Shown here in pieces: positions 19,007 through 44,700 of a stretch of 64,000 nt of DNA. Position numbers and translations under genes: made by a program. The notes beneath the pieces were generated by a model. It made no database searches. It was not told where the DNA came from and saw nothing but the letters and a program-made list of their open reading frames with translations. The DNA comes from Candidatus Omnitrophota bacterium (GTDB lineage Bacteria; Omnitrophota; Omnitrophia; Omnitrophales; Aquincolibacteriaceae): assembly GCA_016930235.1 (NCBI GenBank), contig JAFGHI010000042.1, positions 2,550 to 66,549 on the forward strand, given 5' to 3'. Positions within the stretch are counted from its first letter, which is position 1. Each line of letters begins with the position of its first letter.

Positions 19007-19094
19007 TCACTGCTCTTTTGTAAGTCATAGGAATGAACCTGCGGATGAGGGAACATCCTGAGGCCAAGGGAAAATGAGCTCAATCAAATCGAAG

Positions 19095-19128: not shown

Positions 19129-19139
19129 AGGAGGGGAAA

Positions 19140-19394
19140 ATGGAAAGGCGAATCGGATTTGTCGGGATCTTAGTTGAAAGCAGGAAAAAGACGGCGGCCA
19201 TGATCAATCAGATTTTATCGGATTTTGCGGAAATTATTGTCGCCCGGGTCGGGGTTCCTTATAAGGAAAGAAATGTTTCCGTGATTACCCTGATTGTGGA
19301 TGCGACGAGTGATGAGATCGGAGCCCTGACCGGGAAATTGGGATCATTAGACGGGGTTTCGGTCAAGTCGGCGTTTGCGAAAAACGGCGGTTAG
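19140..19394 (+). CDS. Putative iron-only hydrogenase system regulator (TM1266-like, ACT/NikR-C-like small protein)
   Basis: 84 aa. The pattern GILVE.R......IN.IL..F...I..R.G.PY.E.N.S.I.L...T.DEIGALTGKLG...GV.VK matches the small family found next to hydEFG loci. Assignment is from memory of that family. Confidence 0.55.
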   Translation: MERRIGFVGILVESRKKTAAMINQILSDFAEIIVARVGVPYKERNVSVITLIVDATSDEIGALTGKLGSLDGVSVKSAFAKNGG

Positions 19395-19429
19395 TCCGGA
19401 CTATTCATTATTTTTAAAGGAGAAATGGG

Positions 19430-22185: not shown

Positions 22186-22204
22186 TTAAAATAGGGATGA
22201 GGTC

Positions 22205-23215
22205 TTGTTTATGGAGAAATCCGAAATCATCGAGATCTTGAGGTCTGGAGATGTTCAATCTTTGAGCCGTCAAGCCAATCTTATTAGGGAAACTGCTTGC
22301 GGTCGGAAAGTTTATTTTCGGGGGCTCATTGAGTTTTCAAATTATTGTGTCCGGGATTGCCTTTATTGCGGTCTTCGCAGGAGTAATCGGAAGCTTAAGC
22401 GGTACCGCCTGACGGTTGAGGAGATCATGGCTTGTTGCAGAGCCATTGCCGAATCAGGGATCAAAACCGTTGTCCTCCAATCGGGAGATGACTTCGGTTA
22501 TCAACAGGCCCAGTTGATCGACCTCATTAATCAGATTAAAACCGCCTATCCGGATATGGCCATAACGCTCTCTTTAGGAGAGAGAGATCGGGAAGATTAT
22601 CGGCTGTTCAGAGAGGCGGGAGCTGACCGGTATCTCTTAAAGCATGAGACAATACAACACTCCCTTTACCAGGAGTTTCATCCGGGGCAATCTTTAAGAT
22701 ATCGCTTGCGTATCCTCTTCTATTTAAAAGAGTTAGGATATCAGGTCGGGACTGGGATTATCGTAGGTTTGCCTTCTCAGACATTAGAAGATCTAGCTGA
22801 GGATCTTCTATTCCTTCAAGGCTTTAAACCTGATATGATAGGCATCGGTCCTTTTATCCCCCAGAAGGATACCCCTCTTGGAAGGAACCCGAGTCCCTCC
22901 CTGGAGTTGGTCTTAAAATGTTTAGGATTGATCAGAATTTTGACAAGAGATGCCCATCTCCCTGCAACGACAGCAGTGGCAACGCTCGGAGGCTTGGAAG
23001 CACAACGCAAAGCTTGTGAAGCAGGATGTAACGTCATTATGATCAATTTTACCCCGCCTAGCCACCATCAAGATTATAGGGTTTACGATGATAAGTTCAG
23101 GGTGGATCTGAGAAGCGCCATGGAGGTTGTTTCTGCTGCGGGAATGATCCCATCCCTGGAGCGCGGCGATTCATTGCAATTAAAGGAGATGGACTCAGCA
23201 AAGGGGAATATTTAA
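22205..23215 (+). CDS. hydE: [FeFe] hydrogenase maturase HydE (radical SAM, BioB-like)
   Basis: Radical SAM motif CVRDCLYCGLRRSN. The roughly 336-aa biotin-synthase-like fold is typical of HydE. Confidence 0.85.
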   Translation: MFMEKSEIIEILRSGDVQSLSRQANLIRETACGRKVYFRGLIEFSNYCVRDCLYCGLRRSNRKLKRYRLTVEEIMACCRAIAESGIKTVVLQSGDDFGYQQAQLIDLINQIKTAYPDMAITLSLGERDREDYRLFREAGADRYLLKHETIQHSLYQEFHPGQSLRYRLRILFYLKELGYQVGTGIIVGLPSQTLEDLAEDLLFLQGFKPDMIGIGPFIPQKDTPLGRNPSPSLELVLKCLGLIRILTRDAHLPATTAVATLGGLEAQRKACEAGCNVIMINFTPPSHHQDYRVYDDKFRVDLRSAMEVVSAAGMIPSLERGDSLQLKEMDSAKGNI

Positions 23216-23239
23216 AATTGCTGTCTGAGAAAACAAGGG

Positions 23240-25615: not shown

Positions 25616-25886
25616 GATGTGTTTGGCCGTGCCGGGTAAGATTATAAGCATTACAAATGAAGGGACTCTTGAACGGAAGGGAAAAGTCAGTTTCGGGGGT
25701 GTGATGCGGGATGTCAATCTTGCTTACGTGCCCGAGGCCCAAATCGGAAATTATGTCGTTGTTCATGTTGGAGTTGCCATTAACATATTAGATGAAAGTG
25801 AGGCTATGAAAGTGTTTGATTATCTTAAAGAAATAAACGAACTCAATGAACTTGAAAACAAGGAAGGGGGCGAGAGCCATGAGTAA
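25608..25886 (+). CDS. hypC: [NiFe] hydrogenase maturation chaperone HypC
   Basis: The N-terminal MCLAVPGKI is the conserved HypC/HupF start. Confidence 0.85.
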   Translation: MFEMCLAVPGKIISITNEGTLERKGKVSFGGVMRDVNLAYVPEAQIGNYVVVHVGVAINILDESEAMKVFDYLKEINELNELENKEGGESHE

Positions 25887-28800
25887 GAATTGTATTACGA
25901 TGGATGGAAATGAAGCAGTGGCTCATGTTGCCTACCGGATTAACGAGGTGATTGCGATTTATCCGATTACACCCTCCTCAGCCATGGGGGAATGGGCCGA
26001 TGCCTGGATGTCGGAAGGCAAACCCAATGTGTGGGGAACGATCCCTTCAGTGGTCGAGATGCAAAGCGAAGGCGGTGCTGCGGGTGCGATTCACGGTTCT
26101 TTGCAGACAGGCGCTTTATCGACGACGTTTACGGCTTCGCAAGGTCTTCTTCTGATGATTCCGAACATGTTTAAGATTGCAGGGGAACTGACGGCCGGTG
26201 TTATCCACGTTGCGGCGCGTTCGATTGCAGCTCAGGCCCTTTCTATTTTTGGGGACCACAGCGATGTAATGGCGGCCCGCAGTACCGGCTTTGCCATGCT
26301 TTGCTCGGGGTCTGTCCAGGAAGCCATGGATTTCGCCCTTATTTCTCAAGCGGCTTCGCTTGAGGCTAAAATCCCCTTTGTGCACTTTTTTGAAGGTTTC
26401 CGTACTTCCCACGAGGTCCAGAAGATCGAGTTACTCTCTGATGATGATATCCGCTCGATGATGGACGACAACCTGGTTTCAGAACACCGCGCACGTGCCT
26501 TGTCGCCGGATCATCCGGTTTTAAGGGGAACCGCTCAAAATCCCGATGTCTACTTTCAAGGCCGGGAGACGGTCAATCCGTATTACCAGAAGGCGCCTGG
26601 GATTGTCCAAAAGGTGATGGATAAGTTTGCCAAACTGACAGGCCGTCAGTACCGTTTGTTTGAGTATTTTGGTGCACCGGATGCAAAACAGGTGGTCGTC
26701 ATTATGGGTTCGGGCAATGAACCTGTCCATGCAACAGTGGATGCTATGCATGAGGCGGGGGACAAAGTAGGTGTCTTAAAACTTCGGCTTTACCGGCCCT
26801 TTGATATTCAAGCCTTTGTCAGTGCGTTGCCTAAAACCGTTGAAGCGATCGCTGTTCTCGACAGGTGCAAAGAACCCGGAAGTATGGGGGAGCCTCTTTA
26901 TTTGGATTGTGTCTCGGCGTTAAACGAAGCCGTCGAGAATGGGACCGCGCCTTTTTCTAAAATGCCGAAGATCGTTGGTGGGCGATACGGACTATCATCC
27001 AAGGAATTTACGCCGGCGATGGCCAAAGGTGTTTTTGATAATCTCAAATCCGGGAAACCCAAGAATCACTTTACGATCGGGATTCAGGACGATGTTTCCG
27101 GGACAAGCCTTCCTTATGACCCTGAATTTTCGACTGAACAAAAAGATGCGTTCCGGGCCCTTTTCTACGGTCTCGGGTCGGACGGGACGGTCGGCGCCAA
27201 CAAGAATACGATCAAAATTATTGGTGAAAACACTTCCAATTATGCCCAGGGGTATTTCGTTTATGACTCCAAAAAATCCGGAGCGGTGACGGTTTCTCAT
27301 CTGCGTTTTGGCCCCAAAGAAATCAAAGCACCTTATCTTATTACGAAGGCAAACTTTGTGGGTTGCCACCAGTATATTTTTATTGAAAAGTTTGATGACA
27401 TGCTGGACCGGCTTGTCCCGGGCGGAACGTTTCTTCTGAATTCACCTTATGATTCTGAAAAAACATGGGATGAGCTTCCCAGGGTCTTCCAGGAGAAGAT
27501 GATTCAGAAAAAGATAAAATTTTTCGTGATTGATGCTGTGAAAGTCGCTAAAGATTCGGGGCTTGGCCAGCGCATTAATACCGTGATGCAGGTATGCTTC
27601 TTCGGTATTTCCGGTGTCCTCCCGCGCGAAGAAGCTATCAACGCGATCAAGAAGTCCATCCAGAAAACTTACGGGAAAAAGGGAAATGAGATTGTGCAGA
27701 TGAATTTGAAAGCGGTTGACATGTCTCTGGAACATCTTCATGAGGTTAAGGTTTCGGCGAAAGCAACAAGCCAGAAAGAAATGCCAGCCTTGGTTTCTAG
27801 CACAGCGCCTGATTTTGTCCGTGATGTTTTAGGAAAAATTGTTGCCTGCCACGGCGATGAGCTTCCGGTCAGTGCGATGCCGGCGGACGGAACCTATCCC
27901 ACAGGGACCGCCTGCTGGGTGAAGCAGAATCTCGCTCTTGAAATCCCGGTTTGGGATCCGGAGGTTTGTATCCAATGCGGAAAATGCGCGATGGTGTGTC
28001 CGCATGCGGTGATCCGGATTAAGGCCTATGATCCGAAGTGTTTGGAGAAGGCGCCCAAGACGTTTAAGTCCAAGGAAATGAAGGATCCGACGTTGAAGGG
28101 ATTAAGCTATACGATTCAGGTTTCACCGGAAGACTGCACGGGTTGTGCCTTGTGTGTGGATGTTTGTCCTGCGAAGAATAAATCGCAGACGCGCTTAAAG
28201 GCCATCAATATGGAACCCCAGCCGCCTTTGAGGGAACAAGAGAAAGAAAACTGGGAGTTTTTTCTTTCCTTACCGGAAATTGACCGGAAGATCCTTAAAC
28301 TCAATATGGTGCGTCACCAGCAGCTTCAGCAGCCGCTGTTTGAATTTTCCGGGGCCTGTGCGGGCTGCGGGGAAACACCCTATGTGAAGTTGGCGAGCCA
28401 GCTTTTCGGCGACCGGATGATTGTTGCGAACGCAACGGGTTGCTCGTCCATTTACGGGGGCAATTTGCCGACGACGCCGTGGACGAAGAACAAGGAAGGG
28501 CGCGGTCCGGCATGGTCCAATTCGCTTTTTGAGGACAATGCGGAATTCGGTTTGGGTTTCCGGTTGGCCGTTGACAAACAGAAAGAGTTTGCCTTGGAAC
28601 TTTTAAAGAAGATAGCGTCCGAGGTCGGAACGGACCTGGCCGACGGAATCCTCAAGGCGGCACAAAAAACAGAGGCTGAGATTTTTGAGCAGCGGGAACG
28701 TGTGGAAGCCTTGAAAAAGAAATTGAATGGTTTGAGTTCTCAGGATGCCAAACGCCTGCTTGCGGTTGCCGACATGCTCGTTAAGAAAAGTGTGTGGATT

Positions 28801-29493
28801 ATGGGCGGTGACGGATGGGCCTACGACATTGGATTCGGAGGCCTGGATCATGTCCTTTCGATGGGGCGTGATGTCAACCTTCTTGTCTTGGATACGGAGG
28901 TTTATTCCAATACCGGCGGGCAGATGTCGAAATCGACACCGCGCGGGGCTGTTGCTAAATTTGCGGCGGGCGGCAAGCCGGCGGCGAAAAAGGATCTGGG
29001 GATCATTGCGATGACCTATGGCAATGTGTATGTGGCGAAAGTGGCCATGGGAGCGCGTGATGAGCATACGATCCGGGCATTTCTTGAGGCCGAGGCTTAT
29101 GAAGGCCCGTCTCTTATTATTGCCTACAGCCATTGCATTGCTCATGGGATCCGAATGTCAACGGCCATGCAAAATCAGAAGGTCGCCGTTGAAACGGGAC
29201 AGTGGCCGCTTTACCGTTTTCATCCGGACAAGGCCCGCGAAGGTCAGAATCCTTTTCAGTTGGATTCCCGCGCTCCGCAGGCGGCCGTCGATAAATTTCT
29301 GATGATGGAGAACCGGTTTAAAATGTTGACGAAGAGCCGTCCTGAAGAGGCCAAGGGGCTTTTTAAACTTGCTCAAAAGGATGTCAATACGCGTTGGAAG
29401 CTTTACGAATATTTAGCCGCCCGGCAGCCGGAAGGCGCAACGGGGGCTAAGGAAGAGAAACCAACTTTACAAAATTCAGGGAAATCATCCTAA
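25879..29493 (+). CDS. nifJ: Pyruvate:ferredoxin (flavodoxin) oxidoreductase, single-polypeptide PFOR (NifJ/Por)
   Basis: The start MSKNCITMDGNEAVAHVAY is typical of PFOR. Also present are a two-cluster ferredoxin domain (CIQCGKCAMVCP...CTGCALCVDVCP) and the TPP domain GDGWAYDIGFGGLDH. Start at ATG 25879 overlaps hypC by 8 nt. Confidence 0.9.
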   Translation: MSKNCITMDGNEAVAHVAYRINEVIAIYPITPSSAMGEWADAWMSEGKPNVWGTIPSVVEMQSEGGAAGAIHGSLQTGALSTTFTASQGLLLMIPNMFKIAGELTAGVIHVAARSIAAQALSIFGDHSDVMAARSTGFAMLCSGSVQEAMDFALISQAASLEAKIPFVHFFEGFRTSHEVQKIELLSDDDIRSMMDDNLVSEHRARALSPDHPVLRGTAQNPDVYFQGRETVNPYYQKAPGIVQKVMDKFAKLTGRQYRLFEYFGAPDAKQVVVIMGSGNEPVHATVDAMHEAGDKVGVLKLRLYRPFDIQAFVSALPKTVEAIAVLDRCKEPGSMGEPLYLDCVSALNEAVENGTAPFSKMPKIVGGRYGLSSKEFTPAMAKGVFDNLKSGKPKNHFTIGIQDDVSGTSLPYDPEFSTEQKDAFRALFYGLGSDGTVGANKNTIKIIGENTSNYAQGYFVYDSKKSGAVTVSHLRFGPKEIKAPYLITKANFVGCHQYIFIEKFDDMLDRLVPGGTFLLNSPYDSEKTWDELPRVFQEKMIQKKIKFFVIDAVKVAKDSGLGQRINTVMQVCFFGISGVLPREEAINAIKKSIQKTYGKKGNEIVQMNLKAVDMSLEHLHEVKVSAKATSQKEMPALVSSTAPDFVRDVLGKIVACHGDELPVSAMPADGTYPTGTACWVKQNLALEIPVWDPEVCIQCGKCAMVCPHAVIRIKAYDPKCLEKAPKTFKSKEMKDPTLKGLSYTIQVSPEDCTGCALCVDVCPAKNKSQTRLKAINMEPQPPLREQEKENWEFFLSLPEIDRKILKLNMVRHQQLQQPLFEFSGACAGCGETPYVKLASQLFGDRMIVANATGCSSIYGGNLPTTPWTKNKEGRGPAWSNSLFEDNAEFGLGFRLAVDKQKEFALELLKKIASEVGTDLADGILKAAQKTEAEIFEQRERVEALKKKLNGLSSQDAKRLLAVADMLVKKSVWIMGGDGWAYDIGFGGLDHVLSMGRDVNLLVLDTEVYSNTGGQMSKSTPRGAVAKFAAGGKPAAKKDLGIIAMTYGNVYVAKVAMGARDEHTIRAFLEAEAYEGPSLIIAYSHCIAHGIRMSTAMQNQKVAVETGQWPLYRFHPDKAREGQNPFQLDSRAPQAAVDKFLMMENRFKMLTKSRPEEAKGLFKLAQKDVNTRWKLYEYLAARQPEGATGAKEEKPTLQNSGKSS

Positions 29494-29530
29494 ATCGTGC
29501 AGCGCAGGTTGAGCCAGGAGGAGTAAAACA

Positions 29531-30547
29531 ATGGATTTAACGACTGATTATATGGGAATGACTCTTAAAAATCCCTTAGTGCCGTCGGCTTCGCCGTTAT
29601 CGGAATCGATCGGTAATATTAAGAGAATGGAGGACTCGGGTGCAGCGGCCGTTGTTCTTCACTCTCTTTTTGAAGAGCAGTTGCGTCTTGAGCAACAGGA
29701 GCTTCATCACCATTTGACCGAGCACACCGACAGCTTTGCGGAAGCCTTGTCTTTTTTCCCGGAGCCGAGTGAATTTTCGGTGGGTCCGGAGGAATATCTG
29801 AATCATATCCGGAAAGCGAAAGCGGCGGTGAGTATCCCTGTGATCGCGTCGTTAAACGGTGCGACTCCCGGGGGCTGGACGGATTATGCCAAGAAGATGG
29901 AACAGGCAGGCGCGGATGCCATCGAACTGAACATCTACAATATCCCGATGGATATGGATCAAAGCCCTAATGATATTGAGAAAGTTTATGTTGAGATCCT
30001 GAAGGCCGTGAAAAAAACAGTGAATATCCCTGTGGCTTTAAAGATCGGCGGTTTTTTCACCAATCCCTCTTATTCCATCAAAAAGTTTGCGGATGCCGGG
30101 GCCGATGCGATGGTCCTCTTCAACCGGTTCTACCAGCCGGATATCGATCTGGAGACCTTAGAGATCAAATCTGATGTAGTTTTGAGCACGATCCATTCGA
30201 TGCGGCTTCCTTTAAGATGGATCGCGATGCTTTACGGGAGGGTCAAATGTGATTTTGCGGCCACCCGTGGGATTCATACAGCGGAAGATGCGATCAAGAT
30301 GATTATGGTCGGCGCAAACGTAACGATGCTGTGCTCGGTTCTGATGAAGCAGGGGATCGGCCAGATCAAAAAGATCGAGGAAGAGATGAAGGCCTGGATG
30401 GAAGAACATGAGTATGAGTCCGTGGGTCAAATGCGGGGAAGTATGAGCCAGCTTTACTGCGATAATCCTTCGGTCTATGAGCGCTCGCAGTATATTCGCG
30501 TTCTGAAGAGTTACAAGCCGGAATTTCAGACGCCTTATGGGGCTTAA
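29531..30547 (+). CDS. Dihydroorotate dehydrogenase-like / dihydropyrimidine-dehydrogenase-like FMN TIM-barrel oxidoreductase
   Basis: DHOD family-1-like pattern (PLVPSASPLSES, IASLNG, NIPVALKIGG, GADAMVLFNRF, ATRGIHTAEDAIKMIMVGANV). The exact function is uncertain. Confidence 0.5.
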   Translation: MDLTTDYMGMTLKNPLVPSASPLSESIGNIKRMEDSGAAAVVLHSLFEEQLRLEQQELHHHLTEHTDSFAEALSFFPEPSEFSVGPEEYLNHIRKAKAAVSIPVIASLNGATPGGWTDYAKKMEQAGADAIELNIYNIPMDMDQSPNDIEKVYVEILKAVKKTVNIPVALKIGGFFTNPSYSIKKFADAGADAMVLFNRFYQPDIDLETLEIKSDVVLSTIHSMRLPLRWIAMLYGRVKCDFAATRGIHTAEDAIKMIMVGANVTMLCSVLMKQGIGQIKKIEEEMKAWMEEHEYESVGQMRGSMSQLYCDNPSVYERSQYIRVLKSYKPEFQTPYGA

Positions 30548-30581
30548 GATTCAAACGTTGCTTGATTAAGGATCACGGGGG

Positions 30582-30614
30582 AGCGCAGGCTTTAAAACCT
30601 GCGCTTCTTTTTTT
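30582..30614 (+). terminator. Rho-independent terminator
   Basis: agcgcagg-ctttaaaa-cctgcgct stem-loop followed by tcttttttt. Confidence 0.55.
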
Positions 30615-30640
30615 AAGGGCAGGATGATTCTACGAGGTTT

Positions 30641-31732
30641 ATGATGAAATACGTTGATGAATACCGGGACGGAAAATTGGCCGGACAGTTTGCGGATGCC
30701 ATCAAGCGGACCGTCACAAAACCCTGGACGGTGATGGAAGTTTGCGGTGGGCAGACGCATGCGATTGTCCGGTTTGGCTTGGATGAACTCCTGCCGTCTT
30801 CACTCAATCTGATTCACGGTCCCGGATGTCCCGTTTGCGTAACGCCGCTCGAATTGATTGATCAAGCCGTTGAAATTGCGTCACTCGAGAATGTGATTTT
30901 CTGTTCCTTCGGGGACATGCTGCGGGTACCGGGTTCACGCAGGGATCTCTTTTCCGTCAAGGCAAGCGGGGGAGATGTCCGTATCCTTTATTCGCCCTTG
31001 GATGCTTTAGCGATTGCATCTGAGAACCCGCGTAAAGAGGTTGTCTTCTTTGCGGTCGGATTTGAAACGACGGCGCCTGCCCACGCGATGGCGGTGAAAC
31101 AAGCTTGGGAGCGGGGCATTCGAAATTTCAGCATTCTTGTTTCACACGTTTTGGTCCCGCCTGCGATGGAGGCGATTCTCGCTTCTCCCCATAACCGTGT
31201 TCAGGGTTTTTTGGCGGCCGGACACGTTTGTACCGTTATGGGCTATACGGAATACGAACCTCTTGCTCGGAAGTATAAGGTCCCGATTGTGGTCACGGGT
31301 TTTGAGCCGAGCGATATCCTGCAGGGACTTTTCATGTGTGTCAAACAGTTGGAAGAAGGACGAACGGAAGTCGAAAATCAATATGCCCGTTCTGTCAAGC
31401 GTGAAGGCAATCGGAAGGCGCGGGAAACGGTGCGTGAAGTTTTTCAAGTGATTCCCCGAAAATGGCGGGGGATAGGAGAGATCCCCAAAAGCGGACTCGG
31501 CCTTCGGGAGAAATATGCGGTCATGGATGCGGCGAAGAGATTTAATTTGACGAGTTACGAAGCAGAAGAGTCCCCCGATTGCATCAGCGGATTGATTTTG
31601 CAGGGGCTGAAGAAACCTGACGAGTGTCCCGCTTTCGGAAAAAAATGCACGCCCGAACATCCTTTGGGGGCGACGATGGTTTCCTCCGAGGGTGCTTGCG
31701 CCGCTTATTACCGCTATCGGGGTTCACGATGA
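30641..31732 (+). CDS. hypD: [NiFe] hydrogenase maturation protein HypD
   Basis: MKYVDEYRD start, [19 protein letters not shown], and the C-terminal CxxH motif region. Confidence 0.9.
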
Positions 31733-31738
31733 ACCGCT

Positions 31739-31830
31739 GGCGCCCACCGCGTAGGTGGCCTTTTCAATCATTCCTAACGTTAGGTTTGTTCGAAATTCCC
31801 ACCTACGCGGTGGGCGAAGCGGTGGGCGAG
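31739..31830. repeat. Nested-palindrome intergenic repeat element, copy 1 (REP-like)
   Basis: cgcccaccgcgtaggtgg...ccacctacgcggtgggcg form an 18-bp inverted repeat around a loop containing the cctaacgttagg palindrome. The first 50 bp are identical to copy 2 at 51484-51533. Confidence 0.7.
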
Positions 31831-31856
31831 CCCCGTCCAACGGAGCGAGGAGCGAA

Positions 31857-32909
31857 ATGACAAAAAAAGAATTTAGCATGCAATGTCCGTTACCGGTTCG
31901 GGATTATCCGCGTGTGCTTTTGGCCCACGGCGGAGGCGGGAAGCTGATGCATCAGATGATCGAAAAGATTTTTGCCTCGAGTTTTCAAAATGAGATCCTC
32001 AAGAAGAGGCACGATAGCGCTATCTTGTCTTTACCCTCCTCAAAAATCGCGATGACAACGGATTCTTATGTGGTGCGGCCTCTTTTCTTCCCCGGCGGAG
32101 ATATCGGGAGCATGTCGGTTTATGGGACGGTCAATGATCTGGCGATGGCAGGCGCCAGGCCTAAATATTTGAGTGCGGGGTTTATCCTTGAAGAAGGTCT
32201 TGAGATGGAGACCTTGTGGAAAGTTGTCCAGTCAATGGCTGACGCGGCGAAGGAATGCGGGATTGAACTTGTGACCGGAGATACCAAGGTGGTCGACAAA
32301 GGCAAAGGCGATGGCATTTTTATCAATACGACAGGAATAGGTGTCTTCGAGCATTCCCAGGCGATTGAGCCGCAAAGCATCCGGACGGGAGATAAAATTA
32401 TCCTGAACGGAGACCTGGGACGTCACGGGATTGCCGTGATGATTGCCCGAGAGGGACTTTCCTTAGAAAGCCAGATCGAGAGTGACTCGGCGTCTTTAGC
32501 GGATCTTGTCATGAAATTGTTGGACCTGAAGGTTGAGATCCATTGTCTGCGGGACCTCACACGCGGCGGTCTTTCGAGTGCCTTGAATGAACTTGCCGAA
32601 ACGCGCGGTGTTCAAATCCGTGTCGAAGAAAAATCTATCCCGGTCCGCGAAGATGTTCACGGCGCTTGCGAGATTCTGGGATTGGACCCGCTTTATGTCG
32701 CGAATGAAGGCAGGTTCCTTGTTTTTGTCAAAGCAGGGGATGCCGATAAGGTTTTGAAGGTCATCAAATCACATCCTCTGGGTGAAGCCGCCTCCGTGAT
32801 CGGAGAAGTAACAAAAGAGAAAGATCCTCGAGTGACTTTGGTCAATCAAGTCGGGACAAGCCGGATCCTTGACATGCTCTCCGGAGAACAGCTCCCGCGC
32901 ATTTGTTGA
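31857..32909 (+). CDS. hypE: [NiFe] hydrogenase maturation protein HypE
   Basis: PurM/AIR-synthase-related fold ending in the conserved C-terminal PRIC, whose Cys is carbamoylated/cyanated. Start at ATG 31857. The longer ORF from 31755 would run through the repeat element. Confidence 0.85.
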
Positions 32910-33228: not shown

Positions 33229-34293
33229 ATGGAGAAAAAACGAAATGAAGAAAAAAGAAACAAGAAATTATTTATCGAGGATTTAGAAATTAGGAGAAGC
33301 ACATCGCCATTATTTTTTGCGGCTTTTACAGCTGATATCCAAAATGACGGTACTGAACCGACGAATCCGGAAAAACCTGTGGATGCGCAACCGGACAGCC
33401 AGTCAGCCCAAGAAATTCAGGTTCATCCCGTCACGAATTTACATGAGCCAAATACGATTGTTCCTGCTCGGGTAACTCCAGATGAAATGTGGACTTCGGA
33501 TTTCACTCGAATGGGCGAAGATATGGTTATTTCAACGATGGCAGTGGGCGAAGAAGGTGCTTCGGAGTATAATCCCATTCGATTTGTTTCATCTTCGTCC
33601 TCGCCTGCACCGGTGCCGACGCCCGCGCCTTCTCCGTCGCCTTCGATTGAAGCCAGCCCAACTCCGCATGCGAGTCCGTCGCCGGCTTACAATCCGGCAG
33701 GCATTTCTCCGGGGGAAACGGCGGGGAATGAAACAATGCCTGTTTCGAATGTGCACGGTCCAAGTCCTGAAGCCGCTTCCGAGCCGGTGCTGAGTCAAGA
33801 AATTCAGGTTAATTCCGTACCGGCCACGCCTGAAACGAGCACGGCTGTTCCAACGCGGGTTACTCCCGAAGAAACGTGGACATCGGATTTCACTCGAATG
33901 GGCGAAGAGATGGTTATTTCAACGATGATGGTCGGTGAAGAAGGTACTTCGGAGCTACACCCCATTCGATATTTTTCCAGTCCGTCTTCACCTGCGCCGG
34001 TGCCGACGCCTGCGCCTTCGCCGTCACCTTCGCTGGAAGCGAGTCCTGCTCCTCATCCAAGTCCTGAAGCCGCTTCCGAACCGGTGCCAAGTCAAGAGAT
34101 TCAGGTTAATCCCGTCGCGCCTGCGCCGGTGCCGACGCCTGCGCCTTCGCCGTCACCGAATCCAAGTCCTAGCCCCCTGTCATCGTCTGCTTATGTATCA
34201 CCAGGACAGTTGACGACCATGATGCTGGGTGAAGAAGCTGAGATTGAACTTACGACCATGATGTTAGGGGAAGAAGGCGAAACGGTCGTTTAA
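33229..34293 (+). CDS. Putative multi-core graspetide (microviridin-like) precursor peptide/protein with Pro/Ser-rich spacers
   Basis: Leader-like SPLFFAAF (nt 33307-33327) resembles the microviridin PFFARFL motif. Two near-identical roughly 120-aa modules contain WTSDFTRMGE(D/E)MVISTM(A/M)VGEEG. The C-terminus has tandem TTMMLGEEAEIEL and TTMMLGEEGETVV units. PAPVPTPAPSPSPS linkers are repeated three times at both DNA and protein level. Confidence 0.5.
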   Translation: MEKKRNEEKRNKKLFIEDLEIRRSTSPLFFAAFTADIQNDGTEPTNPEKPVDAQPDSQSAQEIQVHPVTNLHEPNTIVPARVTPDEMWTSDFTRMGEDMVISTMAVGEEGASEYNPIRFVSSSSSPAPVPTPAPSPSPSIEASPTPHASPSPAYNPAGISPGETAGNETMPVSNVHGPSPEAASEPVLSQEIQVNSVPATPETSTAVPTRVTPEETWTSDFTRMGEEMVISTMMVGEEGTSELHPIRYFSSPSSPAPVPTPAPSPSPSLEASPAPHPSPEAASEPVPSQEIQVNPVAPAPVPTPAPSPSPNPSPSPLSSSAYVSPGQLTTMMLGEEAEIELTTMMLGEEGETVV

Positions 34294-34357
34294 TTTGTGT
34301 GGATTTTAGACTATCTATCAATCTTAGGTGACATCTGACCGTTAATTTAAACAGATT

Positions 34358-35308
34358 ATGACGAATTCGAAACCTAAGATCCTCATTGTCGGTGCTCCAA
34401 ACGAACGCCATAGCCATTACATGGCGCAGCGTATTGCGCAAAAAGGCGGTTCTCCCCTAATTTTGGATACACTCAATTTTCCCGCCAAGGTCAAACTTTC
34501 GCTTAGGAATGAAAAGATATTTTATCAAGGGGAACCGCTTGATGAAATAGCAGGGTGTTATCTGAGAACCGTGGTTTTTTTTCTGCCGCCTTATGATTTG
34601 GAAGATAAAAGAAATGCCGAAGGAAAACTCGAAACCGACAATTGGTACCGGGATTACAGGGCCGAACGGGAACGCCAATCGCATTTGGGATCTTTGCTGC
34701 GAGTACTCTTTTTTCGGAATATCCCGGTGGTGAATCCCGTGTCGGCGTTTACGCTTCATTATTTAAAACCCCTGCAGCTTGAGATGTTGAGGAGAGAAGG
34801 GATCCGGGTTCCCGAAACGCTTGTAACGAACGATCCCAAAAAACTTCTGGAATTCAAACAAGAAGTCGGAAAGGTTATTTTTAAACCGGTGGCTGGAGGG
34901 GCCGAATGCCGGGAACTTACCGAAGAGCATTTGAAACCTGAGAAACTCGAAAGATTGCAGAACGCACCGGTTCTCTTTCAGGAGCTCATACCGGGTGAAA
35001 ATGTCCGCGTTTATATTTTGGAGTCGAGAATCCTTGTTGCTGTCATCATCAAATCCGAGACCCTCGATTATCGGGGGCATGAGCAGGGATTCCAAATCAT
35101 CAATCTTCCTCCTGAGGTTGCCCAAATATGCATCAAGGCGATGAGAATTTGCGGGCTTAAGTTTACGGGGATGGATCTTCGTTTGACTCCCGGCGGGGAA
35201 TTCGTGGTCATCGAATGCAATCCTTCGGCGATGTTTATGGGGATCGAGGAAATCCTAAAAGTCGATATCAGCGGGGCCCTTGCCGATTTCCTTATGGGAC
35301 GCTCATGA
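34358..35308 (+). CDS. ATP-grasp peptide maturase (MdnC/RimK-like, graspetide ligase)
   Basis: The N-terminal pre-ATP-grasp region ILIVGAPNERHSH...LDTLNFPAKVKLSL mirrors the MdnC N-terminus. The ATP-grasp core ends in VVIECNPSAMFMGIEE. It lies directly downstream of the precursor-like ORF. Confidence 0.7.
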   Translation: MTNSKPKILIVGAPNERHSHYMAQRIAQKGGSPLILDTLNFPAKVKLSLRNEKIFYQGEPLDEIAGCYLRTVVFFLPPYDLEDKRNAEGKLETDNWYRDYRAERERQSHLGSLLRVLFFRNIPVVNPVSAFTLHYLKPLQLEMLRREGIRVPETLVTNDPKKLLEFKQEVGKVIFKPVAGGAECRELTEEHLKPEKLERLQNAPVLFQELIPGENVRVYILESRILVAVIIKSETLDYRGHEQGFQIINLPPEVAQICIKAMRICGLKFTGMDLRLTPGGEFVVIECNPSAMFMGIEEILKVDISGALADFLMGRS

Positions 35309-36201
35309 ATCCTCTTGCCTTCCAGTATGGGCGCTTGGGGCGGGGCAAATTGTGGGTTGAAGGGCCGGACAGGCGTTTTACGCAAATCGATGATAAAACG
35401 CTGCATATCATCCTTGATCTCAATGATCGTTTTGACTGGGAGCTGATTCAAAAAAGGCACGGTATTTCAAAACAGGAATTGGAAGATCTTGAAAAATGGA
35501 TACGATCCAAAGATTTGGAAGCTGCGGAACCAAAGCATGGCAGGATAGAACGTCTCGACCGATTCCGAACCCCTTTGGATTTAAGCGGTTTCCTTTATTT
35601 TTTAGCTTTGATGATCGTGATTCAAGCCTTGTATTGGGAAGCTTTGGCGCGACATGTTTCGCTTACAGCCCCCTCCCAAATTTTTGTTATTTTTCCAATT
35701 GCCTGTGCCGGCATCATCTTTCATGAGCTGGGGCATTTTTTGGCTTTAAGGCCCTATACTCGGCCAAGGCTCGGCATGACATGGATTTTTTTTCTGCCGG
35801 CTGTCTTTGTGCAGTCGGATGTTCTCTGGAAATTATCCCGTTCGAGGCGCGTATTGGTGAACTTGATGGGAATTTTTGCCGATTCCATTTTCAACTGTCT
35901 AGCCATTTTGTGGGTTTTCCTCAATCCGTCCTTCGAGCCTTGGGTCACACCACTTTTGGTGACCCAGTACATCCGGTGGCTGATTGTTTTGAATCCTTTG
36001 TTTCAAGGCGACGGCTACTGGCTTTTCTCGGATTTGTTCGGGGTGGTAAATTTAAAAACCGAGGGCAGCCGAGATTTTAAACGAAGAAAGGTTAATGTTT
36101 TTTTCTTTTACCATCTGGCTCGAATGGTTTTTACGATTGTGATCCTTTTGAGTCTTGCACTTATGATTTATCATCTCTTAGAGGAGGTTCTATTCCGATG
36201 A
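35305..36201 (+). CDS. M50/site-2-protease-family intramembrane zinc metalloprotease (putative leader peptidase)
   Basis: HELGH sits in a TM helix and NPLFQGDG (NPxxxxDG) further on, the two signature S2P motifs. A roughly 90-aa soluble N-terminal domain is present. Start ATG overlaps the ATP-grasp stop (ATGA). Confidence 0.55.
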   Translation: MNPLAFQYGRLGRGKLWVEGPDRRFTQIDDKTLHIILDLNDRFDWELIQKRHGISKQELEDLEKWIRSKDLEAAEPKHGRIERLDRFRTPLDLSGFLYFLALMIVIQALYWEALARHVSLTAPSQIFVIFPIACAGIIFHELGHFLALRPYTRPRLGMTWIFFLPAVFVQSDVLWKLSRSRRVLVNLMGIFADSIFNCLAILWVFLNPSFEPWVTPLLVTQYIRWLIVLNPLFQGDGYWLFSDLFGVVNLKTEGSRDFKRRKVNVFFFYHLARMVFTIVILLSLALMIYHLLEEVLFR

Positions 36202-36725
36202 ACTATCTATTCGGTTTAACAACGGCTCTGAAAATTGTTTTTGCGATGAGTCTTTTGTCCATGCTAACGGCCCTTTTTGTCCGGCTGGTTTATGAATTTG
36301 AAAGAGGGGTTTTATTCCAAAACGGAAAATTTAAGAAGGTTGTCGATCCCGGGATCGTTTTTTTGGTTCCACTCCTTAATCAACTGGACAAAGTGGATAT
36401 GAGGGAATTTGAGATTGAAATACCAAGGATCTATGTGGTCATGAAGGACGCAAAGCTTCTGGCGGTTGAGATTCATGCGAGCTTTCAGGTGAGTGATGCC
36501 GCCAAGGCGGTTATTGAAACGCAAGATTACTATGAGACTGCGAAGATGGATACCGTAATGATTGTCTCGGATTATCTGTCACAAATTACGATGGACGACA
36601 TGGTGAAAGATTTGCCAGCAATCAAGCAGAAGCTAAGAGAATTTGCAGGTCGTAAGCTGTCATTTTGCGGATTGAGGGTTGTGGGGCTGGAAATCAATCC
36701 GGTTATCACACATCGTTCAGAGTAA
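36198..36725 (+). CDS. SPFH/band-7 domain protein (stomatin/HflC-like), short form
   Basis: N-terminal TM helix, then YEFERGVLFQNGKF...DPGIVFLVPL, which is typical of the SPFH domain start. Confidence 0.6.
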   Translation: MNYLFGLTTALKIVFAMSLLSMLTALFVRLVYEFERGVLFQNGKFKKVVDPGIVFLVPLLNQLDKVDMREFEIEIPRIYVVMKDAKLLAVEIHASFQVSDAAKAVIETQDYYETAKMDTVMIVSDYLSQITMDDMVKDLPAIKQKLREFAGRKLSFCGLRVVGLEINPVITHRSE

Positions 36726-36860
36726 TAACCTTCTACTCCGTGTCCAGCTTCAATTGTTTGTTGATGTGCCCCTTCCCGGAATGAGATGATAAGAAGCGAA
36801 ATAACGCTTCCTTTTAATCGCGTTTTTTAATAAACTTTTCCTGAAGAAGGAGAATTCAAC

Positions 36861-41739: not shown

Positions 41740-44700
41740 ATGAAAATTGACAATCTAACGAATCGAGCGACAAGTATCTTAACGATACTTGTTTTTTTAT
41801 TTTCGCAGGTGATAGTTTTTCCCACGCAGTCGATCGCTGCTGATCCCGTTCAGCAAATCCAGGATCGACAGGCGGAAGTTTCTTTGGAAGTCAAAGAAAC
41901 AGATCATTCCGATATTAATCCTGAAGAAAGATATCTCGATAGGAGTCTGGCCACTTTCTTTGAGCCTGTTGCCATTACAAAAGTAGCGGCGGTACGAACG
42001 CCGGCGTCACCTAAACCCCACGCATCGCCGGTACCTAATGCGTCTCCGAGCCCAACGAGTTATGCGTCACCAAGCCCAAGAAGTTCTTCGTCCCCGTCGC
42101 CGGTTCAAGTGCAAAGCGTTTTTAGCGGAGTCCTCGTAAAAGTTCCTGATGATCAGCCGAGTTTTCTGATGCGGTCGGTCTACCGTTTGCAAATTGACGC
42201 GAACCGTTCGATTTTGGTGGATGGCGCCGATGAAGTGGGTCAAAAATTACTGCCTCTCTATGAAGGCCAAGAAGTTGAATTACGCGGTGAATTTTTCGAA
42301 CTGGAAGGGATGCAGATTTTAAAGGTCACCCATATTAACGGGGAACCTGTCGAAGATTTACTCAATGAACTGCCTGATCCCACGAAGTATCCCACGGAAT
42401 CTGAGATGGAGGCGATACAGGGGCTTGGATCGGATATCGTTAAATTTGACAAAGCGACGGTTCGTGAGGACGGGATGAGGGAATATCAATTTTCTTCGTC
42501 ACCCAATGCGGCCGGAAGATTCCTTCAAATCGAAGTGACTTATGATCCTTGCGGCGGGATGCTTAAATGCCTGGCGCCGATCAGGATCAAGACCTTTCAA
42601 ATTGTTTTTGATCCGGGGCCGGTTTCGAGCGGAGAAATAATCCAGCTGCCGCCTCACGCGTTTCTTGATGTTTCTAAAGTTGAAGGTGTTATTCATCTTC
42701 CCGCGGGCGCGAAGTTCACGCTGGGGTTCCCCAGTGACAACTGGCTCCTATTTGATCTGGAGACGCAGATTACCGAACAGCCCGTCCGCGAAGTCGTTAT
42801 CCAGGATTTAGTCCAGACTTTTGGATTGGATGAATCCGGGATTCGATCGATGCTGGAACGGGGGGATATGAGTATCACGGTGGATCTAGAAAATCAAAAA
42901 GTTAAAGTCCATATGCCCGGTCATTTTAATTATACGCCCGTGGCGGCGGTGCCTTTCGGCGGGGTTTACCAGCCTAATCTTTTAGGTGATGAATACATCA
43001 GCTCTGAGATTACCTATCAATATGAAACGACGACGTCTGAGGATAAGATTCATCTTGTTGCGGCGGAGTTTCGACATAGCGGCAAGGTCTTCCGGTTAAG
43101 TTATGCGACCCCAGCGACCTCTCCGGCATCCGCAGTTCTCAATAACAAATTGTATTCAGTGACCGTTTCCGAAGAGGTTGAGACGCCATGTCTTATGGCG
43201 CCGTGTCCCGTTCAGGAGAAGTTGATTAAGCGGGTGCGATATATTTACTATGCGGATTCTGTGAACCCTGCTATGGCCGGGATCCAATATCTAGGTGAGA
43301 GCAGTGTGGCGTACCGGACGGTGACTTTTGTGGAACGCGAGACGGGTTTATTTGTGGATACCGTTGCGGATTTTGATTCCCAGGATAATTTGATCGCTGC
43401 GAATAAATTTTATTATACGGAGAATGCGGTTTGTGAGGCGATTTCGCCCTGCCACATCGAAAAGATTGAGCGCACGAAACCCCAAGGTGAGAGCAAAACC
43501 CAACGTGTGCTTGTTTCCGTCATTTCGGATTTTGAATATATCTTGTTGATAGGCGGGAAGTTTCCGATGGTGGCGACGATCACGCGCGCGGACGGTGTTT
43601 CTAAAGAGGTGAGATTCGGAAGCGCGGTTGAAGGAATTTTGGAGGAGGCCCTCGAATTCGAAAGCGAATATGATCCAGAACGCGCTGCATTAGAAGAATT
43701 TATTGCGGAATGGAGCCGGTTAAAAGCTGCCTACATGGATTACTTGCTGGAGCAGTTAGAGCCGATTCGGGATATGGGAGCGGCTATGACGGAGACAGAA
43801 CTCGAAGTTTTGCTTGAGGCATCGGATTTAAATGAAGCCCAAAGGGAGCGGTTGAGGCGGTTACATTTTGCTTTGACTTATATGCTTCATACGGTGGATT
43901 GGGTGTTTGATCAGTCATTAACACTTGTAGAACTGCCGGATTGGTATGCTGAATTTGCGGAGGCGGAAGGTTTTTCTTCCGTCGGGCTATATGTTTTCGG
44001 GGATATCGATACCTCCGGCATGTCCTTGGAGGAATTGCGTGAGACGGTCAATGAGATTAGGGATTATACGGCAGGCGAAGATTTGGAGTCATTCTTTGCC
44101 GGAATAGCAGCCGGGGTACCGGAATCCGCTGCGAGTATTATAGCGAGAACGAATCAGATCAACGCCGAGCTGGAAGCGCTGCGGGCGAATGAAAGAATTA
44201 GCCTTCTTAAAGAAAGGGCGCAGGCGCTCTTGGCGAGTAAGACGGAGGAAGTTAATAATTACATTCAGACGCTTCAAGAGCGTATTGATGTTCTCGAGGG
44301 GCTATTAAGCGAGGCGGATGAAGCCAATCTTCAGATGGAAGAATTGTATGCGCTTTTGATGGAGGAACGTGAGCGGCTTGTCAATTTATCAATGCAATAT
44401 CCGGAGGTTGATTTGAGTGATTTGGGCGGGAGCAATGAGATCATTCTCGAGGGGCTGAACGGATCGGGTGTCCAGGACCGGGATTATTACACGGCGTGGA
44501 CGATTTGGCGCGAGAACGTAGCTCGGCTTATCAGCCGTTATGAAGAGGGTATCGCAGTAAATCAAGAGGGCCTGGCTGAATTGGAAGCGCTTGCCAGTCA
44601 AATTTCGGCGTCTAATGATCCATCCGAAATCAAGCGCCTCTTGGATGAGATGATGGACAAGGCCGAAGACTTGCCGGTACCGATGGTTTTTCATCCCATC

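What the first reader, a model, noticed from the sequence alone, without database searches (positions are those of the whole stretch)
33229..36201. Candidate novel graspetide (microviridin-like) RiPP cluster: giant multi-core precursor, MdnC-like ATP-grasp, M50 membrane protease
Three translationally adjacent genes: (i) a 354-aa ORF whose N-terminal SPLFFAAF closely resembles the PFFARFL leader motif that microviridin ATP-grasp ligases bind; (ii) a 316-aa ATP-grasp whose N-terminal pre-domain (LDTLNFPAKVKLSL) and C-terminus (VIECNPSAMF) look like MdnC-type RiPP ligases rather than RimK/GshB; (iii) an S2P/M50 intramembrane metalloprotease whose ATG overlaps the ligase stop. The precursor is roughly 7-fold larger than known microviridin precursors. 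It carries four Thr/Ser-plus-Glu-Glu units ((I/T)(S/T)TM(A/M/L)(V/L)GEEG) separated by Pro/Ser-rich spacers. There is no second ligase, GNAT or ABC transporter. An M50 protease partner is not part of canonical mdn clusters. This is the most likely undescribed system in the window.
Basis: partly seen in the sequence, partly recalled or inferred. Interest (0 to 1): 0.85.

Follow-up and report, generated by a model that had tools for sequence, protein, structure and literature searches.

The report
Plesiocin-type graspetide operon with membrane protease
This is a real four-gene operon in an uncultured Omnitrophota bacterium that should make a plesiocin-type (not microviridin-type) cross-linked peptide, and it carries an undescribed processing pair, a leader-binding membrane metalloprotease plus an SPFH scaffold protein, which recurs in related gene clusters.

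Summary

The class is right (graspetide) but the subtype is wrong. The ligase's best solved relative is PsnB, the plesiocin (group 2) macrocyclase (E 3e-59, full length; MdnB/MdnC 1e-12 to 1e-19; RimK 1e-7).

The precursor carries the experimentally defined PsnA2 leader motif LFIEDL at residues 14-19. It has four (S/T)TxxxGEE cores that fit plesiocin's TTxxxxEE.

It overlaps the second half of a conserved leader, LFIEDLExRRSTSPLF.

Giant multi-core precursors are normal in this clade (55-509 aa).

The new part is the accessory pair:
- A translationally coupled SPFH protein.

The protease recurs in ten independent loci, nine of them with an SPFH gene nearby. Its partners are ATP-grasp, radical-SAM/SPASM, both, or a fusion, and eight of nine readable precursor N-termini share the leader; the ninth, Paenibacillus, shares only its first half.

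I found no report of M50 or SPFH partners in graspetide surveys.

Verdict: new variant of a known kind; moderate interest.

The parts
33229..34293 (+). Precursor gene (354 aa; MBN1688629, annotated 'hypothetical'). It has an N-terminal leader, Pro/Ser/Ala-rich spacers, four bicyclic-core motifs, and no TM segment or signal peptide.
   Evidence: ORF. No Pfam or NCBIfam family. Motifs. Maximum 19-residue hydropathy is 0.63. Accession.
33268..33315 (+). Conserved leader element LFIEDLEIRRSTSPLF (aa 14-29). LFIEDL is the PsnB-binding motif of PsnA2.
   Evidence: Exact LFIEDL at aa 14-19. PsnA2 14-19 LFIEDL is required for PsnB binding and activity. The same two-part leader occurs in L004, L011, L014, L026, L028 and L029; in L013 (Paenibacillus) only the first half is kept.
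33532..33555 (+). Core 1, STMAVGEE (aa 102-109)
   Evidence: (family D4).
33919..33942 (+). Core 2, STMMVGEE (aa 231-238)
34213..34236 (+). Core 3, TTMMLGEE (aa 329-336)
34252..34275 (+). Core 4, TTMMLGEE (aa 342-349)
33409..33697 (+). First copy of the duplicated 289-nt unit: QEIQV..RVTPDEMWTSDFTRMGEDMVI, core 1, then the PAPVPTPAPSPSPS spacer.
   Evidence: the repeat finder family D1, 76% nt identity to the second copy. The two protein units are 67% identical.
33796..34084 (+). Second copy of the duplicated 289-nt unit, containing core 2.
34358..35308 (+). ATP-grasp macrocyclase (316 aa; MBN1688630), a PsnB-type graspetide synthetase.
   Evidence: PDB 7DRM (PsnB) E 3.3e-59 over residues 1-314. 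It is 37% identical to PsnB; PsnB R72, R101, R181 and R213 are conserved and R192 is Lys here. The best NCBIfam hits are RiPP ATP-grasp maturases.
35305..36201 (+). RRE-fused HExxH intramembrane metalloprotease (298 aa; MBN1688631, annotated 'hypothetical'). Its start overlaps the ligase stop (ATGA).
   Evidence: NCBIfam daptide_HExxH 1.2e-13 and YydH/LiaK 3e-11. AlphaFold2 model with pLDDT 90.5. H140, E141, H144, N230, P231, D236 and G237 are invariant in 22 homologues.
35305..35565 (+). N-terminal domain (protease aa 1-87) of three strands plus three helices, with a RiPP-recognition-element (PqqD-like) fold; cytoplasmic location is assumed from the cytoplasmic precursor, not predicted.
35722..35736 (+). 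HELGH zinc-binding motif (protease aa 140-144), inside predicted helix 123-148.
35992..36015 (+). NPLFQGDG motif (protease aa 230-237), the counterpart of the S2P NxxPxxxLDG third-ligand motif.
   Evidence: Invariant N230, P231, D236, G237.
36198..36725 (+). SPFH/Band 7 membrane protein (175 aa; MBN1688632). Its start overlaps the protease stop (ATGA) and GAGGAGG lies 11 nt upstream. It is a short form that ends right after the SPFH domain.
   Evidence: Pfam Band_7 3.4e-17, 63.5 bits against a cutoff of 23.6. Overlap. Homologues are encoded next to the protease in L001, L004, L006, L008, L026, L027 and L029, and divergently upstream in L014.
36793..36810 (+). Terminator-like hairpin 68 nt after the SPFH stop; the probable operon end.
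   Evidence: This is a consensus match only; the number of such sites in the region does not exceed shuffles.

Best explanation
This is a four-gene operon for a plesiocin-type (group 2) graspetide.

Proposed steps:
1. The 354-aa precursor is made in the cytoplasm.
2. Its leader motif LFIEDL (aa 14-19) docks on the PsnB-like ATP-grasp ligase. The ligase phosphorylates the two Glu side chains of each (S/T)TxxxGEE core and closes two omega-ester rings per core. This gives four hairpin-like bicyclic units: 8 esters, -144 Da.
3. The next gene encodes an intramembrane HExxH...NPx4DG zinc protease with an N-terminal RiPP recognition element. I infer that this element binds the same conserved leader (LFIEDLExRRSTSPLF) at the inner face of the membrane. 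The protease would then remove the leader, and possibly cut the Pro/Ser-rich linkers, in step with release across the membrane.
4. The translationally coupled SPFH protein would scaffold or gate the protease, as HflK/C does for FtsH.
5. The product is most likely a protease inhibitor, like the characterised graspetides.

Shown here: gene order and coupling, ligase family, leader and core motifs, protease catalytic motifs, RRE-like fold, conserved synteny.
Inferred: ester topology, leader binding by the RRE, cleavage sites, export, the SPFH role, bioactivity.
For: Ligase:
- PsnB (7DRM) E 3.3e-59 full length, against 1e-12 to 1e-19 for MdnB/MdnC and about 1e-7 for RimK.
- Top NCBIfam hits are RiPP ATP-grasp maturases.
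- Four of five PsnB substrate-binding arginines are conserved.

Precursor:
- Exact LFIEDL at the same position as in PsnA2.
- Four (S/T)TxxxGEE cores, including the Gly that contacts PsnB R72.
- Homologous precursors in eight of nine readable loci share the two-part leader; Paenibacillus L013 keeps only the first half. All but the two radical-SAM-only loci (L014, L029) also carry the cores.

Protease:
- HExxH and NPx4DG are invariant in 22 homologues.
- Nearest curated families are the daptide and YydH/LiaK RiPP proteases.
- Daptide MpaP is described as an RRE-dependent intramembrane leader peptidase.
- EpeP (M50) is thought to both cleave and export.

Synteny and coupling:
- The protease sits beside RiPP maturases in 10 of 10 independent loci examined (Omnitrophota, Planctomycetota, Elusimicrobiota, unclassified).
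- 9 of 10 also have an SPFH gene nearby.
- ATGA overlaps join ligase to protease and protease to SPFH.
- The full-length protease family is rare: 10 clusters at E<=1e-30 among 1.84 billion representatives.
Against: - There is no biochemical evidence of any kind.
- The ligase is only 37% identical to PsnB.
- Two of the four cores begin Ser-Thr rather than Thr-Thr.
- The protease falls below every curated cutoff: Pfam M50 14.5 against 27.2 bits; NF041824 51 against 300; NF058609 43.5 against 225.
- The RRE assignment rests on a predicted structure. Foldseek E-values are not significant (0.14-0.26). Sequence profiles see only generic wHTH families; PqqD matched one member at E 0.16.
- The leader persists in radical-SAM-only loci, so which protein reads which half of it is unknown.
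- The SPFH protein here is a 175-aa short form without the C-terminal coiled coil that longer homologues (255-270 aa) have. L028 has no SPFH gene.
- Three related ligase loci (L009, L011, L013) have neither protease nor SPFH, so the pair is not needed for the chemistry.
- No transporter is present, so export is unexplained.
Confidence: 0.75

Rival explanations
1. One reading: a microviridin-like (group 1) cluster. An MdnC-type ligase would recognise a PFFARFL-like helix (SPLFFAAF) in the leader.
For: PLFFAAF resembles PFFARF if one gap is allowed; true microviridin leaders read PFFARFL or PFFASFL. The ligase also hits the MvdC and MvdD models at 2.7e-23 and 6.3e-20 and MdnB/MdnC structures.
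Against: - PsnB outscores MdnB/MdnC by about 130-150 bits.
- The MvdC and MvdD scores (82.6 and 71.6 bits) are far below their cutoffs of 425 and 475.
- The precursor has no KYPSD-type core.
- There is only one ligase and no GNAT.
- In homologues the FAAF part is not conserved, while LFIxDL is.
- LFIEDL is the experimentally defined binding motif for the closest characterised enzyme.
Confidence: 0.04
2. The precursor and ligase are a graspetide pair, but the HExxH protein and the SPFH protein are a general membrane quality-control or regulated-proteolysis pair. They would sit downstream by chance and would not process the peptide.
For: SPFH proteins commonly partner housekeeping membrane proteases (HflK/C with FtsH; established knowledge). 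Three ligase relatives lack both genes. The protease is below the curated RiPP-protease cutoffs.
Against: - ATGA start/stop overlaps couple the genes.
- All ten independent loci with this protease have an adjacent RiPP maturase and a precursor with the same leader.
- The N-terminal domain has an RRE-like fold.
- The family is very rare rather than housekeeping.
Confidence: 0.12
3. The protease and SPFH pair acts as a self-protection or sensing module rather than as the maturation protease. For example, it could degrade peptide that re-enters the cell, or signal peptide load at the membrane.
For: Graspetides are protease inhibitors, so producers may need protection. Recent surveys suggest that neighbouring proteases in graspetide clusters may be resistance genes.
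Against: An N-terminal RRE (cytoplasmic by inference) points to recognition of the leader-bearing precursor. The closest characterised relatives, MpaP and EpeP/YydH, are maturation proteases.
Confidence: 0.07

Closest known systems
Plesiocin system (PsnA2/PsnB, Plesiocystis pacifica), the group 2 graspetides
   Same: - A single ATP-grasp ligase homologous over its full length (E 3e-59), with R72, R101, R181 and R213 conserved.
- Leader LFIEDL at residues 14-19.
- Four repeated TTxxxGEE-type cores.
   Different: - Only 37% ligase identity.
- Two cores start Ser-Thr.
- The precursor is 354 aa, with long Pro/Ser spacers and a duplicated 129-residue (387-nt) unit.
- The leader has a conserved second half, RRSTSPLF.
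- A dedicated RRE-fused HExxH protease and an SPFH protein are present. Group 2 clusters are otherwise reported to co-occur with NHLM-type peptidase/ABC transporters.
Daptide MpaP (NF041824) and epipeptide YydH/EpeP/LiaK (NF058609) intramembrane HExxH RiPP proteases
   Same: These are the nearest curated families for the catalytic domain (1.2e-13 and 3e-11). They are membrane-embedded HExxH enzymes. MpaP is described as RRE-dependent, and EpeP is thought to cleave and export.
   Different: - Scores are far below the family cutoffs.
- The protein is shorter: 298 aa, against a 379-position daptide profile.
- It serves a graspetide or radical-SAM leader, not a daptide or epipeptide.
- It is paired with an SPFH gene.
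Microviridins (MdnA/B/C, group 1 graspetides)
   Same: The same RiPP class: ATP-grasp side-chain macrocyclisation, with a leader bound by the ligase.
   Different: Microviridins have a PFFARFL leader and a KYPSD-type core, two ligases plus a GNAT, and both lactone and lactam rings. None of these is present here.
Grasp-with-spasm system (TIGR04192/TIGR04193; graspetide group 14, Bacteroidota)
   Same: Relatives of this operon (L004, L006, L026, L028) combine an ATP-grasp with a radical-SAM/SPASM enzyme. A Chryseobacterium grasp-with-spasm-like locus (L017) also has a distant HExxH membrane protease.
   Different: The window ligase scores 19.9 bits against a TIGR04192 cutoff of 230. The radical-SAM enzymes of the relatives do not match TIGR04193. 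The window operon has no radical-SAM gene.
HflK/C-FtsH and other SPFH-membrane protease pairs
   Same: An SPFH-domain membrane protein is encoded together with a membrane-bound zinc HExxH protease (established knowledge of HflK/C-FtsH).
   Different: The protease here is ATP-independent, M50-like and RRE-fused. The SPFH protein is a short 175-aa form. No interaction has been shown.

Membership tests
Graspetides (RiPP class) | A RiPP-type ATP-grasp ligase encoded next to a precursor peptide | tested here: met
   Top NCBIfam hits are TIGR04187, TIGR04185 and TIGR04184. PDB hits are PsnB, MdnB, MdnC and CdnC. The ligase gene starts 64 nt after the precursor gene.
Graspetides (RiPP class) | Side-chain omega-ester or omega-amide macrocycles in the product | not testable with these tools
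   This needs MS, MS/MS or NMR on co-expressed precursor and ligase.
Group 2 graspetides (plesiocin type) | The ligase is most closely related to PsnB | tested here: met
   7DRM E 3.3e-59, 204 bits, residues 1-314. The next best hit is 5IG8 at 72.6 bits. In a rough NJ tree without bootstrap, PsnB is basal to the clade holding the window ligase.
Group 2 graspetides (plesiocin type) | Leader motif LFIEDL required for PsnB binding | tested here: met
   Exact LFIEDL at precursor aa 14-19. It is defined in PsnA2 14-19.
Group 2 graspetides (plesiocin type) | Repeated core motif TTxxxxEE | tested here: met
   Two TTMMLGEE and two STM(A/M)VGEE cores. The Ser-Thr variant also occurs in L004. Shuffle P is about 1e-4.
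Group 2 graspetides (plesiocin type) | PsnB core- and leader-binding residues R72, R101, R181, R192, R213 | tested here: met
   R70, R104, R185 and R217 are conserved; R192 is K196 here.
Group 2 graspetides (plesiocin type) | Falls in the group 2 node set of the published synthetase similarity network (alignment score 70) | not tested
   The network and its member list were not available. The held supplement is cut off and does not reach these entries.
Microviridins (group 1) | PFFARFL leader helix | tested here: not met
   Only a gapped resemblance (PLFFAAF). Homologous precursors conserve just S-x-L-F at this site.
Microviridins (group 1) | TxKYPSDx(E/D)(E/D) core | tested here: not met
   The precursor sequence contains no PSD or KYPSD.
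Microviridins (group 1) | MvdC/MvdD equivalog ligases (two ligases) and a GNAT | tested here: not met
   82.6 bits against a cutoff of 425, and 71.6 against 475. There is a single ligase and no GNAT in the operon or flanks.
Peptidase M50 (site-2 protease) | Pfam PF02163 at gathering score | tested here: not met
   14.5 bits against 27.2, E 0.022. Several homologues carry a precomputed PF02163 hit.
Peptidase M50 (site-2 protease) | HExxH in a transmembrane helix plus a downstream N..P...DG motif supplying the third ligand | tested here: met
   HELGH at 140-144 inside helix 123-148. NPLFQGDG at 230-237. Both are invariant in 22 homologues.
Daptide MpaP / YydH-LiaK HExxH RiPP proteases | NCBIfam equivalog cutoffs (NF041824, NF058609) | tested here: not met
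   51 bits against 300, and 43.5 against 225.
Daptide MpaP / YydH-LiaK HExxH RiPP proteases | RRE-dependent intramembrane peptidase architecture | tested here: inconclusive
SPFH / Band 7 | Pfam PF01145 at gathering score | tested here: met
   63.5 bits against 23.6, E 3.4e-17.
Grasp-with-spasm system (TIGR04192/TIGR04193) | TIGR04192 ligase plus a TIGR04193 SPASM partner | tested here: not met
   The ligase scores 19.9 bits against 230. The operon has no SPASM gene; the radical-SAM genes at 20440-23215 are HydG/HydE-like.

The most novel reading that the evidence does not exclude
The RRE-fused intramembrane HExxH protease and its SPFH partner form a portable leader-reading processing and release module. 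It would be keyed to one conserved leader (LFIEDLExRRSTSPLF) and would serve precursors modified by an ATP-grasp, by a radical-SAM/SPASM enzyme, or by both.

If so, this would be the first dedicated leader protease for plesiocin-type graspetides. It would also be the first case of an SPFH scaffold gating a RiPP protease. The leader would be two-part, with different proteins reading each half.
Probability: 0.4. Interest if true: 0.7.

Novelty: new variant of a known kind. Interest (0 to 1): 0.55.

Why it matters
A RiPP-protease review notes that heterologous studies often leave the leader on (abstract). A leader protease for class I microviridins was reported only in 2026.

This operon offers a candidate dedicated protease with a built-in leader-recognition domain for the best-understood single-ligase graspetide chemistry, the PsnB type. 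Leader removal therefore becomes directly testable with four small genes.

The same protease and SPFH pair and the same leader recur with radical-SAM/SPASM maturases. That suggests a modular, leader-keyed processing platform that could be reused in RiPP engineering. It also points to an unstudied family of hybrid ester plus radical-SAM peptides in candidate phyla (Omnitrophota, Elusimicrobiota, Planctomycetota).

An SPFH protein as a conserved RiPP-cluster component has, as far as I could find, not been described.

Tried and rejected
- The first genome-contig scan, with the ligase alone, found no relative. An exact-sequence contig look-up of the ligase also found nothing, although the protein is in the collection.
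- A word-indexed search with the single protease sequence returned only itself. The profile search and the exhaustive HMMER search were needed.
- Searching the precursor against PDB gave only low-complexity Pro-rich matches.
- No sigma-70-like promoter was found on the + strand upstream of the precursor. Terminator-like sites do not exceed shuffles.
- The 64-nt precursor-ligase spacer does not fold significantly better than shuffles (z -1.56), so I claim no attenuator.
- Looked for M50, Band_7 or SPFH in graspetide surveys and their supplements and found nothing. One supplement is cut when stored. Ramesh et al. 2021 is not held. Absence from the literature is therefore not proven.
- Rejected the microviridin assignment, a RimK/GshB housekeeping ligase, and membership of the grasp-with-spasm system.


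Full report
**What is there**

The window comes from a Candidatus Omnitrophota metagenome-assembled genome. The four proteins are deposited as MBN1688629-32 (JW893_05975-05990). They are annotated hypothetical, ATP-grasp domain-containing, hypothetical and SPFH domain-containing.

Four same-strand genes follow a 319-nt AT-rich gap after hypE:
- Precursor, 33229-34293, 354 aa.
- ATP-grasp ligase, 34358-35308, 316 aa.
- HExxH membrane protein. Its real start is ATG 35305, overlapping the ligase stop as ATGA. It is 298 aa.
- SPFH/Band 7 protein, 36198-36725, 175 aa. Its ATG overlaps the protease stop as ATGA and is preceded by GAGGAGG.

A terminator-like hairpin lies at 36793-36810.

The flanks are housekeeping genes. 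Upstream are the [FeFe]-hydrogenase with HydE/F/G, HypF, PFOR and HypD/E. Downstream are a YgaP-like protein, CydAB (by eye from the translations) and a Kef-type exchanger.

**The ligase is PsnB-type, not MdnC-type**

Against all PDB sequences, the best hit is 7DRM. The PsnB paper shows this entry to be PsnB, the plesiocin macrocyclase. The hit is E 3.3e-59 over residues 1-314.
- MdnB and MdnC-type chains score 1e-12 to 1e-19.
- RimK scores about 1e-7.
- CdnC scores 2e-4.

The best NCBIfam hits are RiPP ATP-grasp maturase models, all below their cutoffs. RimK and glutathione synthase rank lower.

Identity to PsnB is 37%. PsnB R72, R101, R181 and R213, which contact core and leader, are conserved. 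R192 is Lys here.

**The precursor is plesiocin-type**

LFIEDL sits at residues 14-19. This is the same sequence and position as the PsnA2 motif shown to be needed for PsnB binding and macrocyclisation.

Four cores fit TTxxxxEE, including the Gly before the Glu pair:
- STMAVGEE at residue 102.
- STMMVGEE at residue 231.
- TTMMLGEE at residues 329 and 342.

The motif occurs four times against 0.25 expected in shuffles. It occurs nowhere else in the six frames of the window.

The gene contains a 289-nt unit duplicated at 76% identity, and two tandem 13-aa C-terminal units. There is no hydrophobic segment.

In homologous precursors the leader reads KKLFI(E/R)DLExR(R/K)S(S/T)SxLF. Examples:
- L028: LFIEDLEKRRSTSPLF.
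- L026: LFIRDLEKRKSSSSLF.
- L011: LFIEGLEYRRSTTTLF.
- L029: LFVEELEVRKSTSPLW.

'SPLFFAAF' therefore overlaps a genuinely conserved second half of the leader. The FAAF part that made it look like PFFARFL is not conserved. The counterpart of the microviridin ligase-binding helix is more plausibly KLFIEDL (inference).

**Size is not unusual in this clade**

Precursors next to related ligases range from 55 aa with 2 cores (Paenibacillus, L013) to 509 aa with at least 20 cores (L011). Pro-rich spacers are common.

**The protease**

The catalytic part matches the daptide (NF041824, 1.2e-13) and YydH/LiaK epipeptide (NF058609, 3e-11) intramembrane HExxH RiPP proteases, and weakly matches Pfam M50. 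All these scores are below the cutoffs.

In 22 full-length homologues, H140, E141, H144 and N230, P231, D236, G237 are invariant.

AlphaFold2 with that alignment gives pLDDT 90.5. The model has an N-terminal unit of three strands and three helices (aa 1-70), followed by six long helices.

- TigE, 8.1.
- TfuB1 with its leader peptide, 8.0.
- TbiB1 with its leader peptide, 7.7.
- ThcOx, 6.9.
- TbtB, 6.4.
- Further down: MccB, PqqD, TglI, McbB and MibB.

As far as I know, these domains are RiPP recognition elements; the tool output itself shows this only for TfuB1 and TbiB1 (solved with leader peptides), TglI (named RiPP recognition protein) and PqqD. Foldseek ranks CteB and TbiB1 first by probability (0.84-0.91), but with non-significant E-values. 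Sequence profiles see only generic wHTH families.

I therefore call the domain RRE-like with moderate confidence. There is precedent: daptide MpaP is described as an RRE-dependent intramembrane leader peptidase.

**Conserved neighbourhood**

I examined ten independent loci that encode a full-length homologue of this protease.

| Loci | Maturase next to the protease | SPFH gene |
|---|---|---|
| window, L001, L008, L027 | ATP-grasp; no radical-SAM gene in the window, and in the other three the contig ends inside or just before the precursor | yes |
| L004/5, L006/7/15, L026 | radical-SAM/SPASM plus ATP-grasp | yes |
| L028 | 691-aa radical-SAM-ATP-grasp fusion | no |
| L014, L029 | radical-SAM/SPASM only | yes (divergent and upstream in L014) |

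- Every locus has a RiPP maturase beside the protease.
- In the five of these loci (besides the window) where the precursor N-terminus is readable (L004, L014, L026, L028, L029), it carries the same two-part leader. Of two further ligase-only loci, L011 has it too, while Paenibacillus L013 keeps only the LFIxxL half. In L001, L006, L008 and L027 the N-terminus is cut off by the contig end.
- Three related ligase loci (L009, L011, L013) lack both protease and SPFH.
- In a rough NJ tree, PsnB is basal and most of the derived clade carries the pair.
- The full-length protease family is rare: 10 clusters at E<=1e-30 among 1.84 billion representatives. The catalytic domain alone has 4163 relatives at E<=1e-3.
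- More distant HExxH relatives sit beside other RiPP maturases, including a Chryseobacterium grasp-with-spasm-like locus.

**Mechanism**

Shown: the gene set, the coupling, the motifs, the folds and the synteny.

Inferred by homology to PsnA2/PsnB: leader docking through LFIEDL, and two Thr/Ser-Glu esters per core.

Inferred from architecture and precedent: the RRE binds the shared leader, and the membrane-embedded active site removes it, perhaps together with release across the membrane, as proposed for EpeP.

Weakest step: the SPFH protein scaffolds or gates the protease, by analogy with HflK/C-FtsH. The window's SPFH is a short form (175 aa) lacking the C-terminal helical region of the 255-270-aa homologues.

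The leader persists where there is no ATP-grasp. This argues that a shared component, most simply the protease RRE, reads it. The radical-SAM enzymes could do so as well.

**Comparison and novelty**

The chemistry and the recognition logic are those of group 2 graspetides, so the core finding is a new member of a known kind.

The accessory pair is the new variant:
- A 2023 review of RiPP leader proteases lists M50 enzymes only for epipeptides and pearlins.
- The 2022 phylogenomic survey of graspetide-associated genes lists neither M50 nor SPFH.
- The 2026 census of 17,967 graspetide clusters reports group 2 with NHLM-type transporters. Its held supplement contains no PF01145 or PF02163 entry.
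- No held paper links SPFH proteins with RiPPs.

These are absences in an incomplete library, not proof.

**Verdict**

- Observation: confirmed.
- Interpretation: partly supported. The class is right; the subtype and the leader motif are wrong.
- Novelty: new variant of a known kind.
- Interest: 0.55.

Noticed in passing
L004:2964-3773, L006:3-470, L014:4096-4620, L026:4364-4891, L029:3299-3679: Precursors with the same LFIxDL...STS leader carry Pro-rich repeats of the type (K/M/R)Y(G/A)(P/V)xP, for example VKYGPPTP, VMKYAPPNP and LRYAVTMP. This happens whenever a radical-SAM/SPASM gene is in the cluster, with or without TTxxxGEEG cores. The pattern looks like an undescribed radical-SAM-modified motif and a hybrid ester plus radical-SAM RiPP family. 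The radical-SAM enzymes do not match TIGR04193.
   Followed up: partly
L028:2926-5001: A single 691-aa protein fuses a radical-SAM/SPASM domain to the PsnB-like ATP-grasp domain. It lies directly upstream of the HExxH protease. This locus has no Band_7 gene; two unannotated ORFs of 200 and 136 aa follow instead.
   Followed up: partly
L011:4147-5676: A 509-aa precursor with at least 20 TTxA(V/L/I)GEEG cores, interleaved with VTLAIPE(G/S)GR units. It sits next to a 346-aa PsnB-like ligase and TPR/HEAT proteins, with no protease or SPFH gene.
   Followed up: no
window 33493-33522 and 33880-33909 (precursor aa 89-98 and 218-227): Each large repeat has a second Gly-Glu-(Glu/Asp) site, TSDFTRMGE(D/E), just upstream of the canonical core. 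Its hydroxyl residues are at -3, -6 and -7 from the Gly instead of -4 and -5. Whether the ligase modifies it is unknown.
   Followed up: no
window 36198-36725; L001:2335-2853; L008:2038-2568: The SPFH proteins of the window's closest subclade are short (172-176 aa) and end right after the SPFH domain. Those of the other loci are 255-270 aa with a C-terminal helical region.
   Followed up: partly
L017:5755-9888 (Chryseobacterium sp. LC2016-29): A distant HExxH membrane protease (daptide_HExxH 4.8e-25) lies directly upstream of a TIGR04192-like ATP-grasp and a TIGR04193-like SPASM protein. Other distant relatives (L023, L024) follow radical-SAM/SPASM RiPP maturases.
   Followed up: partly
window 41740-47736: A 1998-aa ORF on the + strand with no Pfam family at E<=1e-4.
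   Followed up: no
window 15430-32909: An [FeFe]-hydrogenase (NuoF-like and HydA) with its maturases HydF and the radical-SAM proteins HydG and HydE lies beside HypF, PFOR, HypD and HypE. HypF/D/E are [NiFe]-hydrogenase maturation genes. The graspetide operon is inserted between this block and cydAB (cyd assignment by eye from the translations).
   Followed up: no
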